In this document: positions 23,287-62,807 of the stretch, one piece after another
Position numbering within the stretch: position 1 is the first letter of the stretch
Layout of the letters: the number at the start of each line of letters is the position of its first letter
Assembly: GCA_964016885.1 (NCBI GenBank)
Contig: OZ024753.1
Location: 45,880,001 to 45,944,000 of the forward strand
Direction: 5' to 3'
From: Eledone cirrhosa
Taxonomy: Eukaryota
Length of the DNA: 64,000 nucleotides
Position numbers and translations under genes: made by a program
Notes under the pieces: generated by a model
What the model was told of the DNA's origin: nothing
What the model saw: the letters and a program-made list of their open reading frames with translations, nothing else
Database searches by the model: none

Positions 23287-23438
23287 ACGAAGGAAGTGAG
23301 GTAAGGAACCAGGTGGACCATAACACATCAGAGTACTCAATATTTAGGGTAGTAGAGTGGGTAATAGGAAATTTTCTGAGTCCAGAAATAGCCGTCGAAA
23401 CGGTTCGAGCTCTGCCGTCGGGGTCTTGAACATTTTCC
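23287..23438. mobile_element. Short TA-embedded repeat family, copy 1 (half hammerhead)
   Basis: Shares ggtaaggaaccag...agtactcaata..tagggtagtagagtgggtaatagga with 46656 and 62629. Ends ttctg-agtc-cagaa-atagccgtc GAAA cggt...gccg TC gggg. Confidence 0.75.
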
Positions 23439-23494
23439 TATATATATATATATATATATATATATATATATAGCGTAAAAAAAAAAGTTCTCAA

Positions 23495-23780
23495 CACATA
23501 TCTGAGCTGTGATCTCTCTATTCAGAGAAGTAGCGGCTCTACCTAGAGCCATTCTCTGATATCTGAGCTTCAGACTTTATAGTCTAATGTTACTCCAAAG
23601 ACATGTCTTAGTAACCCCGGCTGGTTGTATTGAGGATCGTATTCATTCTGTCATTACCCATGTTTCATGACCATAATTAAGGGTTGGCACTCATACAGAA
23701 TTGAAGAATGCGAGTTAGGGTTTTACTCGAAGGGTGAAGCTGATACAATAATGCACAATCTCATGCAATTCCTGCACATA
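23495..23780 (-). mobile_element. RTE-clade (Expander/Rex3-like) RT fragment, decayed
   Basis: VPTLNYGHETWVMTE*IRSSIQPA, frameshift, LRHVFGVTLDYKV*SSDIREWL*VEPLLL*IERSQLR. Confidence 0.8.
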
Positions 23781-25380
23781 ATTCAACATCCCTTCTCACA
23801 CACACATGCATATATATATATATATATATATGTATATATATATATATATAGAGAGAGAGAGAGAGAGAGGGGGGTAGAGAGGGAGATGAAGGGGAGACAG
23901 ACAAAGAGAGAATTAGACCATGTATCAAATAGAGGCTTATTTACAGAAGCCTTGAGAGTTCCTGCCCAGATTATGTATTCGATATTATTATTGTTTGTAA
24001 CTAACTTTTTTTACACGACAGGAAATAGAGAGAGAAAGATAGAATAAAGACAGAAATGGTAGGGAGCTATAGAGAAATAGAATGACGTAGAGGGAGAGGG
24101 GGAGATGTAGAGAGAGGGGGAGATGTAGAGAGAGGGGGGGATGTAGATAGAGGGAGGAGAGAGAGGAGAGAGAGTGAGAGAGGGGGGTTGTAATATCTGT
24201 TCTAAAAATAATAAGTTTGTTAAAAATATATTATTTACGAAAATACGTTTTCAGACGGGTTCCAAATAACATTGCTAGTAAAACAACAACAAAAAAAGGA
24301 AAAACATTTAAATTGTGAGAAAAATGTAATCGACCACTTGTTTTTCTATATGACTGAAATACGATATTTTTTTTGTATCCTTTACCAAAGTTACGTAGCT
24401 TAGTTTTTCTATATAGATACTAATTTCATTTTATATCTATGTGTGTGTGAGTGAGTGAGCGAGTACATGTATATATATATATATATATATATATATATAT
24501 ATATATAAACATGTGCACACACATATATATATACACATATATATATGAACACACACACACACATATATATATATATGAACACACACACATATATATATAT
24601 AAACACACACACACATATATATAAACACACACACACACATATAAATAAACACACACACACACATATATATAAACACACACACACATATATATATATATGA
24701 ACACACACACACACTCACACATATATATGAACACACACACTCACACACACATATATATATATACATATACATATATGGGAGATAGAGTGAGAGAGAGAAA
24801 AGGAGTGTGTTTGGTATTAGATTGTGGCAAATAATTTCAAGCTTATTCTAAAATAGTAATCCAAACTTACTTATGCTATATTTACGCACCACATAGCAAT
24901 ATAATTCTCGTTATGCCTGAAGACGAGTTTTCATGAAATATGTTTAGTGTTTTCTTCTTTAGAAACGATAGAGATGTTTAAATGTTTCTGAGTTGCAGTG
25001 TAGAATTTCTATTTTATATTTTTGAAAAAAGTAAATTTATTTTATATAAAAATTTTCTTTTTTGGGTAGACTTTTATTGGGTGGAGGTTCAAATTTGAAG
25101 AACCTCCATTTATTTAACGTCGATAATTTATTTTAAATATCCACGAGGAAGATAGTTCAAAATAAAATTACATTTTTTTTTCAACGTGGTGTACTTGGAA
25201 TAGAGTTTTCAAAGAATATGTTGGTCAAGTAAATTTGTTACCACAAACCGATAGAAAATTGTCAGTTTATTTTTTCTCTCTATTCGAGAAAATATATTTT
25301 CGATTTAATTCTATATGGCTTATGTTAACCTAACATAAGCACTGAGTGAATGGTTTCAATAATATGTATAAAGTTTCCAT

Positions 25381-25490
25381 ATAACTGTTTTTACTTTTGG
25401 CACAAGGCCTGCAATTATATCAGTGTATTACTGATACTTTATTTTATCGACCACGTAAGGATGAAAGGCAAAGTTAAACTCGGCGGGATA
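25381..25490 (-). mobile_element. SINE (OR2-type), 3' half
   Basis: tttggcacaaggcc...tactttattttatcgacc.cgtaaggatgaaaggcaaagttaaactcggcggg. Confidence 0.8.
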
Positions 25491-59120: not shown

Positions 59121-60747
59121 ATAATGATACAAGGACGAATGGTTATTACTTCATTACATGTATTGGTTGGGACACGCGTTTCGCTAGTGATCAGATCAAG
59201 GTTCGATTTGTATCAATCTAGCCCGACTCTGGACTCAAAAGCTCGTCAGACCTCTGTGGTAGTGATGACAGGTAAAAAAATTGAAACAGTACAGGACTAT
59301 ATCAAAAGATTATTTTTTCCTTAATCTGTCAGAAAGATGTTTCAGTTGGCATTTTTTGTTGTTCTATAGTGTGTGTGTGTGTTCATTTAGCTGGGGTTAT
59401 ATTGTGTCAAAGGTTCTCACACACACACACACACACACACACACACACACACACACACACACACACACACACACACACACACACACACACACACTGCTTT
59501 TCCATGTTTCCAATTTATATGTCAAAAGCTCGTTGAAAGCTTGATGAGATATTTTTGTCATAGTTGATTAATTTTTGTATTCGTTGTCGCTGTGTTAGAA
59601 TCTCGTGATGTAAATACTTTCAGTGGAATCTGTAAAATTTAGATTGTATGTATATAAACACTTTAGATCATAATCAGGATTCATTCCATTACCTTTTACT
59701 AAGCTAATTTTTATTATATTTTGTAGATAAATATCATGATTCTAGTCCTTTTATTCTTTGTAATATTTTACTAGTTCAGTCGTTGCAGTGTGGACTATTT
59801 GCTCTTTCTCTCTCTCACCTTATATATATATATATGTTAAAACAAAAAACAAAACCAATAACGAAGTGTGCAGTACAAAGTGTTAGTATTAAGTTCCCGC
59901 TTGAGAGTGGGGGTGGGGGACGAAGTCTCGGGCATAAGCCCTTAATCAGGAGAAAAGTGGGAAGGAAAAGAGTTCCGAGGGTGTGAGGGGGAGTGATGGA
60001 AATACATTAAAAAGAGGGGAAGAGATTTAAGCGGAAGGAAAACAAATTAAAAAGAGGGTAAAATATTAAAATGAAAAAAGTGGAGAGAGAGAGAGAGACC
60101 CCTGATTAAACCAGATATCTTTTAACGCGTTCAGCCCTTTATCTTTGTCAACAAATGTTCAAATTACGGCGCAACTTCGTTTTGTTAATTATTTTAGCTA
60201 CTATTTCTAGTAGGTTGTGTAACAACCTTCCTTCAAAACCTATTCAGTTATTGAATAGCAGAGACAAAAGCTACTGAGAATAAAATTTCAAACTTCATTT
60301 ATACATTTTAAATAATTTTAATGTCTGAAATAATTAAAGTGCCAGAAAAATATTATTGATCAAAGCCAAATAATTGTTTGAAAATTAATTACATCAAAGA
60401 CAAAATATGCAGATTGCATACATTAAAAACATTTTTGTTGCTTTCATTTCTCTCTGTATCTATTTATCTCGCTAACAAAATAAAGCCAACAAAACAAAGG
60501 CAGTGCAGACAGCAACACACACATACACACACACACATATATATATATACACGTGTGTGTGTGTGTGTGTGGACACACAAACACACAGACACACAAGTAC
60601 ATATATATATATATATAGTGTATATATATATTTATATATAATGTGTATGTGTGTGTGTGCGCGTGTCATTACAAATGCCGTATCTACTTTCATATGCCAG
60701 GCAAAAATCATGTTATATATGATCAAATGTAAAAAAAAAACGGAAAA

Positions 60748-60896
60748 CGGAATTGGCGGAACGTCGGATAGAATGCTTTGCGGCATTCGTTTGAGTTCTC
60801 TGCTCTTTGAGTTCAAACCTCACCAAGGTCAACTCTGCATTCTATCATTTTGATGTCGATAAAAAAAAAAGTACCAGTCTAATACTGAAGTCGACT
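60748..60896 (+). mobile_element. SINE (OR2-type), plus strand
   Basis: gaattggcggaa head, tgagttcaaacc B box, ggtcaact.tgc.tt..atc.ttt.g..gtcgataaaa..aagtaccagt core. Confidence 0.75.
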
Positions 60897-62628
60897 CTTC
60901 TTCTTATATATCTTTTTAACTTTATTTCTCTCACTATTTGCCCTTCTCTTAAAGAAACCTGATGTGTTCAGACCCAGAGAAGAGATGCTTTGAAATCCGG
61001 AGAAAAATATCTACGAACTATGAAGTTTAAAATAAAAAATGTAGAATTAATACATTTCAAGACTCAGATTCTCCTGAGAGGGCGATAACTTTTAACTAGT
61101 ACCACAGTATATAATTTCACTATTTGGAGACCGGTTGACTTGTAATCGTTGCAATTTAAGCAAATAAAACCACGCTTGAATGAAGCTATGCAAAAATTAA
61201 TGGAAGTAAACCATCTCTTGAATTTTTTTCCTCTGGGATTCGAGAGAGCTGTGGAGGTATAGTTTAGGTATAACAAATGATATTAGTAATAGTTTTATAT
61301 TCTGATTGCATCGTACACACAGGATCGTTTCGAAAAGTATATATACTAATTAACTGAAACACAACTACAGAAATAAATATTGCGTAGAAGACTACAACCG
61401 AGTTAACTGCAGTCCTTTGCAATCCTAAAAGAATGCAGTGTTGAAATACTTAGGAGAATTATCATTAATTAAAGATAAACTAATCGAAAAATATTGCCTG
61501 GTAATTCATTCAGAGATTTATAAACAATCCCCATGATACTTTCGCCAACAGCTTTAATACGAAGATATCTTAATAAGAACGAACCATAATACCATCTCAT
61601 AAGACATGTCTATATTCATTTTCCTCTGATAAGAAAACTATGAATATCACACCACACCATTCTAGTGTTCTCTGTTCAAATGAAATGTCGATTATTCTGA
61701 TCAAATAGATACTTGTGTATATTCTCTTATAGTTGAGAGGAAATATTGCAAGAAAGAAATATCTTAATAAATACATTGTCTTCAATGTAATCATGGTGAG
61801 TAATGTAGACGAATGAAGCCGGGATAATGTAATAAAATAAATTAATTAAAATATCCTTTGAAGAACACCGGAGAAATTTCCGTTCTCCTTTGTCTCAGAT
61901 TATTATCCAGTCATTGTTTTCTGTATTGCTGTTATAGTATTTTTCCAATATCTAGCACTTCGCAATATACATATTATGTATATATACATACATATAAATA
62001 CATACATACATACACAGATACATACATATATACATACATACCTCTTTCTCTTTTCTTACTATGTTAAGCGGGAGTCTTACATCATCTTTATTGTAAGTCA
62101 TCGTTGTGTTTTTTCCGTTTACATTTCTCATACATGTATGTGTATGTATATATTCGAAATGTGTATATGCGATACTATGAATTTATCTCATACTTTAGGT
62201 GTTATCTTTGTGGTGACTTGAATATATAGAAATCACACATAATAGTCCTACCTTCAAAGGTCAGTGGTCCGCTTTAGGGAAACATTACACAAATAAATAT
62301 TATGAATCCATAGAAGGGCAAACAATGAGACATAACTGAAATCAAGAAGGTTTCTGACTAAAGTAAATATAACAGTTGAAGATATGTAACCTATAATGGA
62401 ATATAACTGGAATACCACTCAGTGGAGTTCTTTTATATTCTGAAAATGATTTCCCTCAAAAGCATTCACACAAATACACCTCGATACACGCAAAAGTGCG
62501 CGCGCACACACAGACACACACACAATATATATATATATATATACGAAAAATAAACGAAAAATTAACAGGCCATGGAGTACAATACACACACACACACATA
62601 TATATATATATATATATATATATATATA

Positions 62629-62807
62629 AGGAAGTGTGGTAAGGAACCAGATGAACCATAACCCTACCAGAGTCCTCAATACTTAGGGTAGTAGAGTGTG
62701 TAATAGGAAAATGTAAACCCGACGGCAGAGCTCAAGCCGTTTCGACGGTAATTTCAGAAATAGCCGTTGAAACGGCTTGAGCTCTACCGTCGGGGTTAAA
62801 CATTTTT
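62629..62807. mobile_element. Short TA-embedded repeat family, copy 3, with imperfect hairpin
   Basis: Same leader. Hairpin aaaatgt..cccgacggcagagctcaagccgtttcgacgg / ccgttgaaacggcttgagctctaccgtcgggg..acatttt. Confidence 0.75.

What the first reader, a model, noticed from the sequence alone, without database searches (positions are those of the whole stretch)
23287..62807. Recurrent system: several unrelated hammerhead fold-back elements, all located in (TA)n
Seen: at least five mutually dissimilar families (42021, 42406, 42691, 55875 and the 23287/46656/62629 family) share one architecture. Each abuts (TA)n, has an asymmetric inverted repeat with one arm extended, and has hammerhead core elements in or next to the fold. 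Known: Penelope-like elements leave partial tandem and inverted pLTRs and prefer AT-rich targets. Inference: this genome hosts a diverse population of ribozyme-bearing non-autonomous retroelements that use (TA)n as a safe-haven target and integrate through a fold-back intermediate. Repeat annotation would easily miss them among simple repeats.
Basis: partly seen in the sequence, partly recalled or inferred. Interest (0 to 1): 0.8.

Follow-up and report, generated by a model that had tools for sequence, protein, structure and literature searches.

The report
Two-armed Penelope ribozyme insertion footprints
These mirror-image repeats sitting in TA runs are real, belong to very abundant families, and look like the known footprint of Penelope-type jumping genes (one is a protein-free ribozyme repeat), likely made by copying one kind of RNA from both cut DNA ends rather than by a single fold-back.

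Summary
Largely confirmed, and I found a sixth family (17172). All 8 inserts touch (TA)n (about 3% by chance) and read (TA)n - long arm with a one-sided 56-125-nt tail - short arm, with ribozyme strands pointing outward. Complete type I hammerheads occur in 42691 and 55875 (5 strict hits, shuffles 0.06). In 42021 and 17172 the window copies are damaged, but public reads show the intact letter in most family copies. 42406 and the 23287 family show only the 3' half. All five families laid on reads are high-copy. This is the published architecture of endonuclease-bearing Penelope-like elements; the (TA)n target, the U.U stem-II hammerhead and a tail hairpin match the Hydra clade. No RT was found, so clade membership and 'non-autonomous' are unproven, except that 55875 is a 468-nt non-coding tandem retrozyme. 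One fold-back cannot build 23287 or 55875, where each arm holds sequence the other lacks; two primings at two fixed RNA sites can, as shown in vitro for another PLE. 'Safe haven' is untested. The scan found this system before on other DNA of this genome. Known kind, new members.

The parts
17172..17303 (-).
   Evidence: family letter at 17280 restores GAAA in 2292 of 2483 and 1519 of 1535 X6 reads
17304..17358 (+). Family F short arm; hammerhead core damaged at 17310; ends at TATA/(GATA)n
   Evidence: T at 17310 (intact CUGAUGA) in 353 of 377 and 373 of 401 X6 reads
23287..23371 (-). Family E copy 1: long arm, which is the tail plus only 7 nt shared with the forward arm
23372..23440 (+). Family E copy 1: short arm with the 3' half of a hammerhead (23392-23422: GAAA, 5-bp stem III, GUC site), ending in (TA)n
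42026..42143 (-). Family A short arm (core at 42073-42085; an apparent 47-nt deletion plus 8-nt duplication removes its cut site); the 52-nt spacer 42092-42143 likely belongs to this arm
   Evidence: reads run from the arm into the spacer (rows 42092, 42106, 42111)
42144..42380 (+). Family A long arm: type I hammerhead 42146-42203 (U.U at the base of stem II, palindromic stem III, cut-site letter 42199 mutated to G) and about 125-nt tail with an AC-rich stem-loop
   Evidence: A at 42199 in 775 of 779 and 317 of 325 X6 reads
42408..42562 (-). Family B long arm: stem-II-like hairpin, GAAA, palindromic stem III and GUA site (42544-42561); about 63-nt tail; no CUGANGA
42563..42648 (+). Family B short arm (7-nt deletion in the half-core), ending in (TA)n; the fold centre is the stem-II-like hairpin
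42691..42963 (-). Family C long arm: complete type I hammerhead (42823-42888) and about 89-nt tail with hairpin (42753-42774)
42965..43148 (+). Family C short arm: complete hammerhead (43040-43105; 8-bp stem I, long stem II, palindromic stem III, AUA site), ending in (TA)n; 183 of 184 nt match the long arm
   Evidence: 5126 (X6) and 5884 (X7) reads run into (TA)n at the mirror position 42774
46656..46772 (-). Family E copy 2: long arm with about 77-nt tail (hairpin 46702-46727)
46773..46816 (+). Family E copy 2: short arm with hammerhead 3' half; 40 of 40 nt match the long arm; the centre is a natural RNA hairpin
55876..56661 (-). Family D short-ended arm: 786 nt, about 1.7 units of a 466-468-nt non-coding repeat, two complete hammerheads (56586-56630, 56118-56162)
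56660..57389 (+). Family D long-ended arm: 730 nt, about 1.6 units, complete hammerhead 57043-57087, 56-58-nt tail; 2-nt overlap with the other arm at the centre
62629..62755 (-). Family E copy 3: long arm with tail and hammerhead 3' half (62718-62748)
62757..62806 (+). Family E copy 3: short arm, followed by (TC)37 and then (TA)n

Best explanation
The inserts are head-to-head pairs of RNA-derived copies in (TA)n, likely written by a Penelope-like (probably Hydra-clade) reverse transcriptase-endonuclease that would prime DNA synthesis from both cut ends of the TA repeat at two fixed sites on the element RNA. Shown: two outward-pointing arms, a tail on one arm only, (TA)n at the outer ends, hammerhead cores near the arm ends, high copy number, recurring short ends in C and F, arms within a copy more alike than copies. 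Inferred: the endonuclease nicks both strands of (TA)n; each 3' end pairs by 2-4 nt with a UA-rich spot in the RNA; one start lies 4-11 nt upstream of a conserved RCTC hairpin and the other 56-125 nt further 3', the difference being the tail; both cDNAs stop early and are joined at their inner ends, often at an RNA hairpin or palindrome; host repair fills in. The hammerhead rides along because it lies just upstream of the starts; it likely trims or circularises multimeric precursor RNA as a dimer and is not needed for the fold. Families A, B, C, E and F are 3' stubs of autonomous or non-autonomous PLEs; D is a retrozyme copied from a multimeric or circular 468-nt RNA by the same machinery.
For: Anatomy. 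Non-nested arms in 23287 and 55875. Read joints of other E copies where the inverted arm stops inside the tail (46689, 46699, 46707, 46727) and joins a forward arm at 46767, so the arms share nothing (1-2 contigs each, 46727 also 56 and 111 reads). Recurring short ends: C at 42774 (5126 and 5884 reads into (TA)n), F at 17247 (1578-1914 reads per run, mixed flanks), E at the same site in 2 of 3 window copies. 6 of 7 arm/(TA)n junctions overlap the template by 2 nt or more (P about 0.001). RCTC within 12 nt after the short end in 5 of 6 families (background 5%), full hairpin in 4 of 6 (background 1%); the same hairpin is visible by eye in 3 of the 6 published new Hydra consensi. The U.U base of stem II in A, D and F and the ACAG...CUGU-A stem III in F match Hydra hammerheads. 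Five mirrored variant pairs differ from the family majority in both arms. An Anolis PLE nicks and extends both strands and starts at two RNA sites that define the tail (PMC11167929).
Against: No RT or endonuclease sequence in the window and none of six family motifs in the published PLE supplement, so the partner is unidentified. Five of 8 copies have arms ending at nearly the same inner point, which a fold-back also explains. Mirrored variants fit fold-back or arm homogenisation equally well. Tails are 56-125 nt against the 30-40 nt published. D lacks the tail hairpin and B has only its first half. The summed-overlap test is weak (P 0.07, or 0.036 if F is counted as 6), both overlap tests are post hoc, and the in vitro PLE started at sites not homologous to the target. 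Read joints come from 82-85% likeness with short sides and could be later deletions. No empty site or RNA evidence.
Confidence: 0.72

Rival explanations
1. Single fold-back: one cDNA (or an antisense RNA template, as proposed for rotifer PLEs) self-primes at a hairpin and copies itself back, stopping short of the tail.
For: Near-coincident inner ends in F, B, C, E46 and E62, with natural hairpins or palindromes at the centre in B, E46 and F; identical arms with shared private variants; self-priming on an antisense template is proposed in PMC3846280.
Against: 23287 and 55875 have non-nested arms and need extra template jumps; read joints show E copies whose arms share no sequence; it gives no reason for the copy-back to stop at a fixed site and join (TA)n with overlap.
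Confidence: 0.15
2. Same insertion route, but all six families are dedicated non-autonomous retrozyme-like RNAs rather than stubs of coding PLEs.
For: D is non-coding and tandem and folds strongly (z -7.0); no ORF next to any arm; read loose ends suggest that many E forward arms start near the same point; vertebrate retrozymes resemble PLE pLTRs (preprint).
Against: Arms of A, B, C, E and F are at most about 270 nt, about as short as Hydra 3' non-coding ends (by eye), so the lack of an ORF says nothing; they are not tandem here; their tails and hammerheads resemble ends of coding Hydra elements.
Confidence: 0.3
3. DNA foldback elements or MITEs with terminal inverted repeats inserted at TA dinucleotides; the hammerhead-like words are chance.
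For: Long inverted repeats beside TA; D's arms of tandem units superficially resemble foldback elements (recalled); half-cores are common by chance.
Against: The inverted repeats are not terminal on both sides, the inner ends vary, and 23287 has only 7 nt inverted; full cores far exceed chance and keep their pairing with different sequences in four families.
Confidence: 0.03

Closest known systems
Insertions of endonuclease-bearing Penelope-like elements: inverted 5'-truncated copy plus one-sided tail (PMC8557442, passages; PMC3846280, passages)
   Same: Head-to-head inverted copy, tail on one side only, 5' truncation, hammerhead near the end, palindromes at the inverted junction.
   Different: Tails here are 56-125 nt rather than 30-40; no ORF in any copy; target-site duplications cannot be read in (TA)n.
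Hydra clade of PLEs, including Hydra-1_Obim (PMC8557442 section 11; supplement parts 2, 52, 53 of 59)
   Same: (TA)n preference, canonical hammerhead in the 3' region, U.U stem-II base, ACAG/CUGU stem III, a GCTC...GAGCAC-like hairpin near the ends.
   Different: No motif match of these families to the published consensi; the defining RT and EN motifs cannot be tested; C has a much longer stem II.
Metazoan non-LTR retrozymes (PMC7229834, passages; bioRxiv 10.64898/2026.07.22.740005, parts 1-3 of 5)
   Same: Family D: short non-coding tandem units below 45% GC, one type I hammerhead per unit, strongly self-paired, U.U stem II as in axolotl HHR_Amex2.
   Different: D is a head-to-head pair of arrays with a PLE-type tail inside (TA)n; I saw no such arrangement in the parts read, and 'retrozyme' plus 'head-to-head' gave 0 papers. 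The unit (468 nt) is at the top of the reported 150-450 range.
Minimal PLE hammerheads (PMC4209133, passages)
   Same: Palindromic stem III suited to dimer cleavage; pairs 100-700 bp apart on opposite strands were already noted in Schistosoma and ascribed to truncated PLEs.
   Different: Stem I is longer in C and D (7-8 bp); activity is untested here.
Poseidon PAc in vitro mechanism (PMC11167929, parts 1-2 of 4)
   Same: Both strands nicked and extended; two internal RNA start sites define the tail; AT-rich target.
   Different: Another clade; PAc starts in an AC-rich loop without target homology, whereas these junctions show 2-4 nt of TA overlap.

Membership tests
EN+ PLE insertion | Inverted 5'-truncated copy, head-to-head | tested here: met
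   8 of 8 inserts, minimal (7 nt) in 23287
EN+ PLE insertion | Tail on one side only | tested here: met
   6 of 6 families, 56-125 nt, longer than the published 30-40
EN+ PLE insertion | RT + GIY-YIG ORF | tested here: inconclusive
   No such ORF in the window; copies are too short and no genome was held
EN+ PLE insertion | Target-site duplication | not testable with these tools
   Target is (TA)n; no empty site among the read joints shown (15 of 131, 15 of 141)
Hydra clade | RWK, DKT and CxCX5C motifs; EN without CCHH | not testable with these tools
   No coding sequence available
Hydra clade | (TA)n insertion | tested here: met
   also a trait of Naiads, so not exclusive
Hydra clade | Canonical hammerhead in the 3' region | tested here: met
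   C and D complete; A and F complete by family-majority letters; B and E half only
Type I hammerhead | CUGANGA, GAAA, three stems, NUH cut site | tested here: met
   C x2, D x3; A and F at family level
Type I hammerhead (families B and E) | CUGANGA half of the core | tested here: inconclusive
   Absent from all 4 window copies because the arms are truncated; not among the read rows shown
Type I hammerhead | Self-cleavage | not testable with these tools
   Needs an assay; 8 of 9 Xenopus retrozyme dimers did not cleave in vitro (preprint)
Non-LTR retrozyme (family D) | Non-coding tandem units, each with a type I hammerhead | tested here: met
   468-nt unit, 3 hammerheads, two of them consecutive in one arm
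Non-LTR retrozyme (family D) | Expressed as circular RNA | not testable with these tools
   No RNA run was listed, and that search did not include D
Non-LTR retrozyme (family D) | Dispersed, many copies | not tested
MITE / foldback DNA transposon | Inverted repeats at both termini with fixed inner structure | tested here: not met
   One-sided tails and variable centres

The most novel reading that the evidence does not exclude
These stubs record the priming rule of Hydra-type PLEs: both ends of a cut (TA)n pair by a few bases with UA-rich spots on one RNA, a conserved RCTC hairpin positions the upstream start, and the same enzyme copies a hammerhead-made RNA circle (family D) from both DNA ends at once, the proposed but unshown route by which animal retrozymes move.
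Probability: 0.35. Interest if true: 0.65.

Novelty: new member of a known kind. Interest (0 to 1): 0.38.

Why it matters
The layout is known, so the value is as a natural record of an unresolved mechanism: how PLEs make inverted copies and tails, and what mobilises animal retrozymes. Short copies with non-nested arms discriminate between two-ended priming and fold-back, and family D puts a PLE-type footprint on a retrozyme. The tail hairpin and the TA overlap give concrete mutations to test in the existing in vitro PLE assay. In practice, standard RNA-family search misses all these hammerheads, and a recent octopus repeat annotation does not mention ribozymes in its main text.

Tried and rejected
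No whole genome is held, so the genome-wide test was replaced by two read lay-overs. Rfam on the whole window: no hammerhead among the best 150 of 420 matches, which are chance microRNA-like hairpins. Exact-pattern scans of metagenome (2), viral (1) and prokaryote (1) collections: 0 hits. Six family motifs in the PMC8557442 supplement: 0 hits; six tail words: 2 hits, one in the Hydra-2_Amil tail and one unrelated. Pfam on 6 of the 58 long frames: nothing relevant. No tRNA. No RNA holder listed (no evidence either way). The upstream core half of family E was not among the rows shown (24 of 2952 loose ends). Places where many reads end (42255, 42709, 42966) lie at AATT and are taken as library cut sites, not element ends. 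'Opposite strand' joints at 46738 reflect a sequence difference between this copy and the family, not variable centres. Read depth is not a copy number (reduced-representation library, summed contig depths). Minimum-energy folds do not give the active hammerhead shape for most monomers, and the dimer co-folds were uninformative. Look-ups of earlier findings by sequence gave nothing related. The preprint's supplements could not be seen and might list further retrozyme structures.
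Full report
Setting. The window is AT-rich animal DNA, 15% of it in (TA)n tracts, with no tRNA and no recognisable gene among the six frames tested against Pfam. Its short dispersed repeats resemble octopus SINEs (recalled, from no call), and earlier notes call the genome an octopus; I did not establish this. No assembly was available.

Observation. I name the families A (42026), B (42408), C (42691), D (55876), E (23287, 46656, 62629) and F. 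Each reads: (TA)n, long arm, short arm, (TA)n or a derived simple repeat. The strand carrying the hammerhead points outward on both arms, so the arms are joined head to head. One arm runs 56-125 nt further at its outer end (E 77, C 89, B 63, F 73, A 125, D 56-58). Eight of 8 have an end within 6 nt of a (TA)5+ tract and 6 of 8 have both, against about 3% and under 0.1% for random placement.

Ribozymes. A strict type I descriptor finds 5 cores, two in C and three in D, all with a palindromic stem III and 7-8-bp stem I; 100 shuffles give a mean of 0.06. Relaxing the cut-site letter adds A. Reads show that the window copy of A is the exception: position 42199 is A in 775 of 779 and 317 of 325 X6 reads and similarly in X7, which gives a valid AUA site. 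Both F arms are damaged at different core positions, and the family majority has the intact letter at each (17310: 353 of 377 and 373 of 401; 17280: 2292 of 2483 and 1519 of 1535). The four families keep stems I-III with unrelated sequences. B and E show only the 3' half; that alone is weak (75 halves in the window, 39 in shuffles), though E keeps a 5-bp stem III and a GUC site, intact in 3 of its 4 half-cores. Rfam passes none.

Abundance. In reduced-representation reads, bins over A, B, C, E and F are covered hundreds to about 17,000 deep while neighbouring single-copy bins are near 0; in contigs of run X1 the summed depth is 10^4-10^6 against 4-9; a second organism (X5) holds A, B, C and E. 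These are not copy numbers.

Mechanism. (1) The short end recurs: 5126 and 5884 reads leave C for (TA)n at 42774, 1578-1914 reads per run leave F at 17247, and two of three E copies end at the same base. (2) A single fold-back needs the second arm to lie within the first. In 23287 the forward arm has 62 nt missing from the inverted arm, and the inverted arm has the tail missing from the forward arm. In D the short-ended arm (786 nt) starts 116 nt upstream of the long-ended arm (730 nt), with a 2-nt overlap at the joint; fold-back in either direction needs an extra slip of one unit. Reads show other E copies whose inverted arm stops inside the tail (with the caveat of short sides and low likeness). 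Against this, F, B, C, E46 and E62 have arms ending at almost the same inner point, three of them at a natural hairpin or palindrome, so fold-back or a common RT stop is possible there. (3) Both arms come from the same source sequence: among the 40 variant rows shown of 347, five mirrored pairs differ from the family majority in both arms (42064/42171, 42855/43073, 42931/42997, 42929/42999, 46739/46810). This does not separate one RNA molecule from two RNAs of one locus or from later homogenisation. (4) Six of 7 arm/(TA)n junctions overlap the template by 2-4 nt (P about 0.001 for the count, 0.07 for the sum; post hoc). The simplest account is two target-primed starts, one from each cut end, at two fixed RNA sites. 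That behaviour was measured for the Anolis Poseidon protein, where the two starts define the tail and hammerhead mutants still insert (PMC11167929, parts 1-2 of 4). The steps from nicking to joining are inferred here.

Family D. A 468-nt unit without a meaningful ORF, strongly self-paired (z -7.0 against 100 shuffles, much of it from an internal TA/TG hairpin), one hammerhead per unit, arms identical except for one TA unit, so very young. It sits inside a several-kb compound TA array. More-than-unit arms in different phases fit a multimeric or circular template; the window cannot tell which.

Comparison with what is known. An inverted truncated copy plus a one-sided tail is the standard footprint of endonuclease-bearing PLEs (PMC8557442, passages; PMC3846280, passages, which proposes antisense self-priming). 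Opposite-strand pairs of minimal hammerheads 100-700 bp apart were reported in Schistosoma as truncated PLEs (PMC4209133, passages). The Hydra clade targets (TA)n, has canonical hammerheads and includes an octopus family (section 11; supplement). Its hammerheads often have the U.U stem-II base seen in A, D and F, and by eye 3 of its 6 new consensi carry a hairpin like the E, F and C tails. None of six family motifs matched the supplement, and the protein motifs that define Hydra cannot be tested, so the inserts work like Hydra ends but are not filed as members. D meets the sequence definition of a non-LTR retrozyme (PMC7229834, passages); PLE mobilisation of retrozymes is proposed there and argued by phylogeny in a 2026 preprint (parts 1-3 of 5; supplements not seen), with the mechanism left open. 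Searches showed no paper that describes head-to-head retrozyme arrays, the tail hairpin or twin priming in PLEs, but the library lacks most subscription papers and I read only the papers named. An Octopus vulgaris annotation lists 31 recently active Penelope-like families and no ribozyme (PMC13282606, passages).

Verdict. Real, well above chance, and of a known kind. The scan reached the same reading many times on other DNA of this genome; those notes are not independent evidence. Interest 0.38, carried by the mechanistic clues rather than by the elements.

Noticed in passing
   Followed up: yes
window 22994-23080 and 23173-23205 (minus strand): A high-copy repeat end between TA tracts next to E23 (read depth about 2300-3900), and nearby a GCTC...GAGC hairpin like the tail hairpin; possibly the end of a further family. 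One read joint links 23051 to family F.
   Followed up: partly
window 22440-22740: Unidentified very high-copy repeat ending at (TG)32 (read depth up to about 35,000).
   Followed up: no
window 17400-18130: High-copy, GC-richer repeat fragment directly after family F's (GATA)n; LINE-like by appearance, no Pfam hit.
   Followed up: partly
window 13717-14111, 25386-25489, 40001-40188, 58939-59120, 60759-60887: Dispersed SINE-like family, 69-91% alike; resembles octopus SINEs (recalled).
   Followed up: no
window 44862-45076: High-copy fragment ending in (GAT)n after (TA)n, like the 3' end of an RTE-type LINE (type recalled).
   Followed up: no
window 43844-44013: Two 85-nt direct units, 83% alike, the first matching a high-copy repeat.
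   Followed up: no
window 51314-55875 and 57390-58250: Very long compound TA array with a TTACA-type motif in the same orientation on both sides of family D, as expected for insertion into an existing array.
   Followed up: partly
window 46814-46983: Short tandem units of TA plus AAGTTC(C/T)TCTTCC right after E46, perhaps slippage products at the insertion end.
   Followed up: no
window 49603-49635 and 58309-58389: Weak AT-rich inverted repeats near TA tracts without a hammerhead core.
   Followed up: partly
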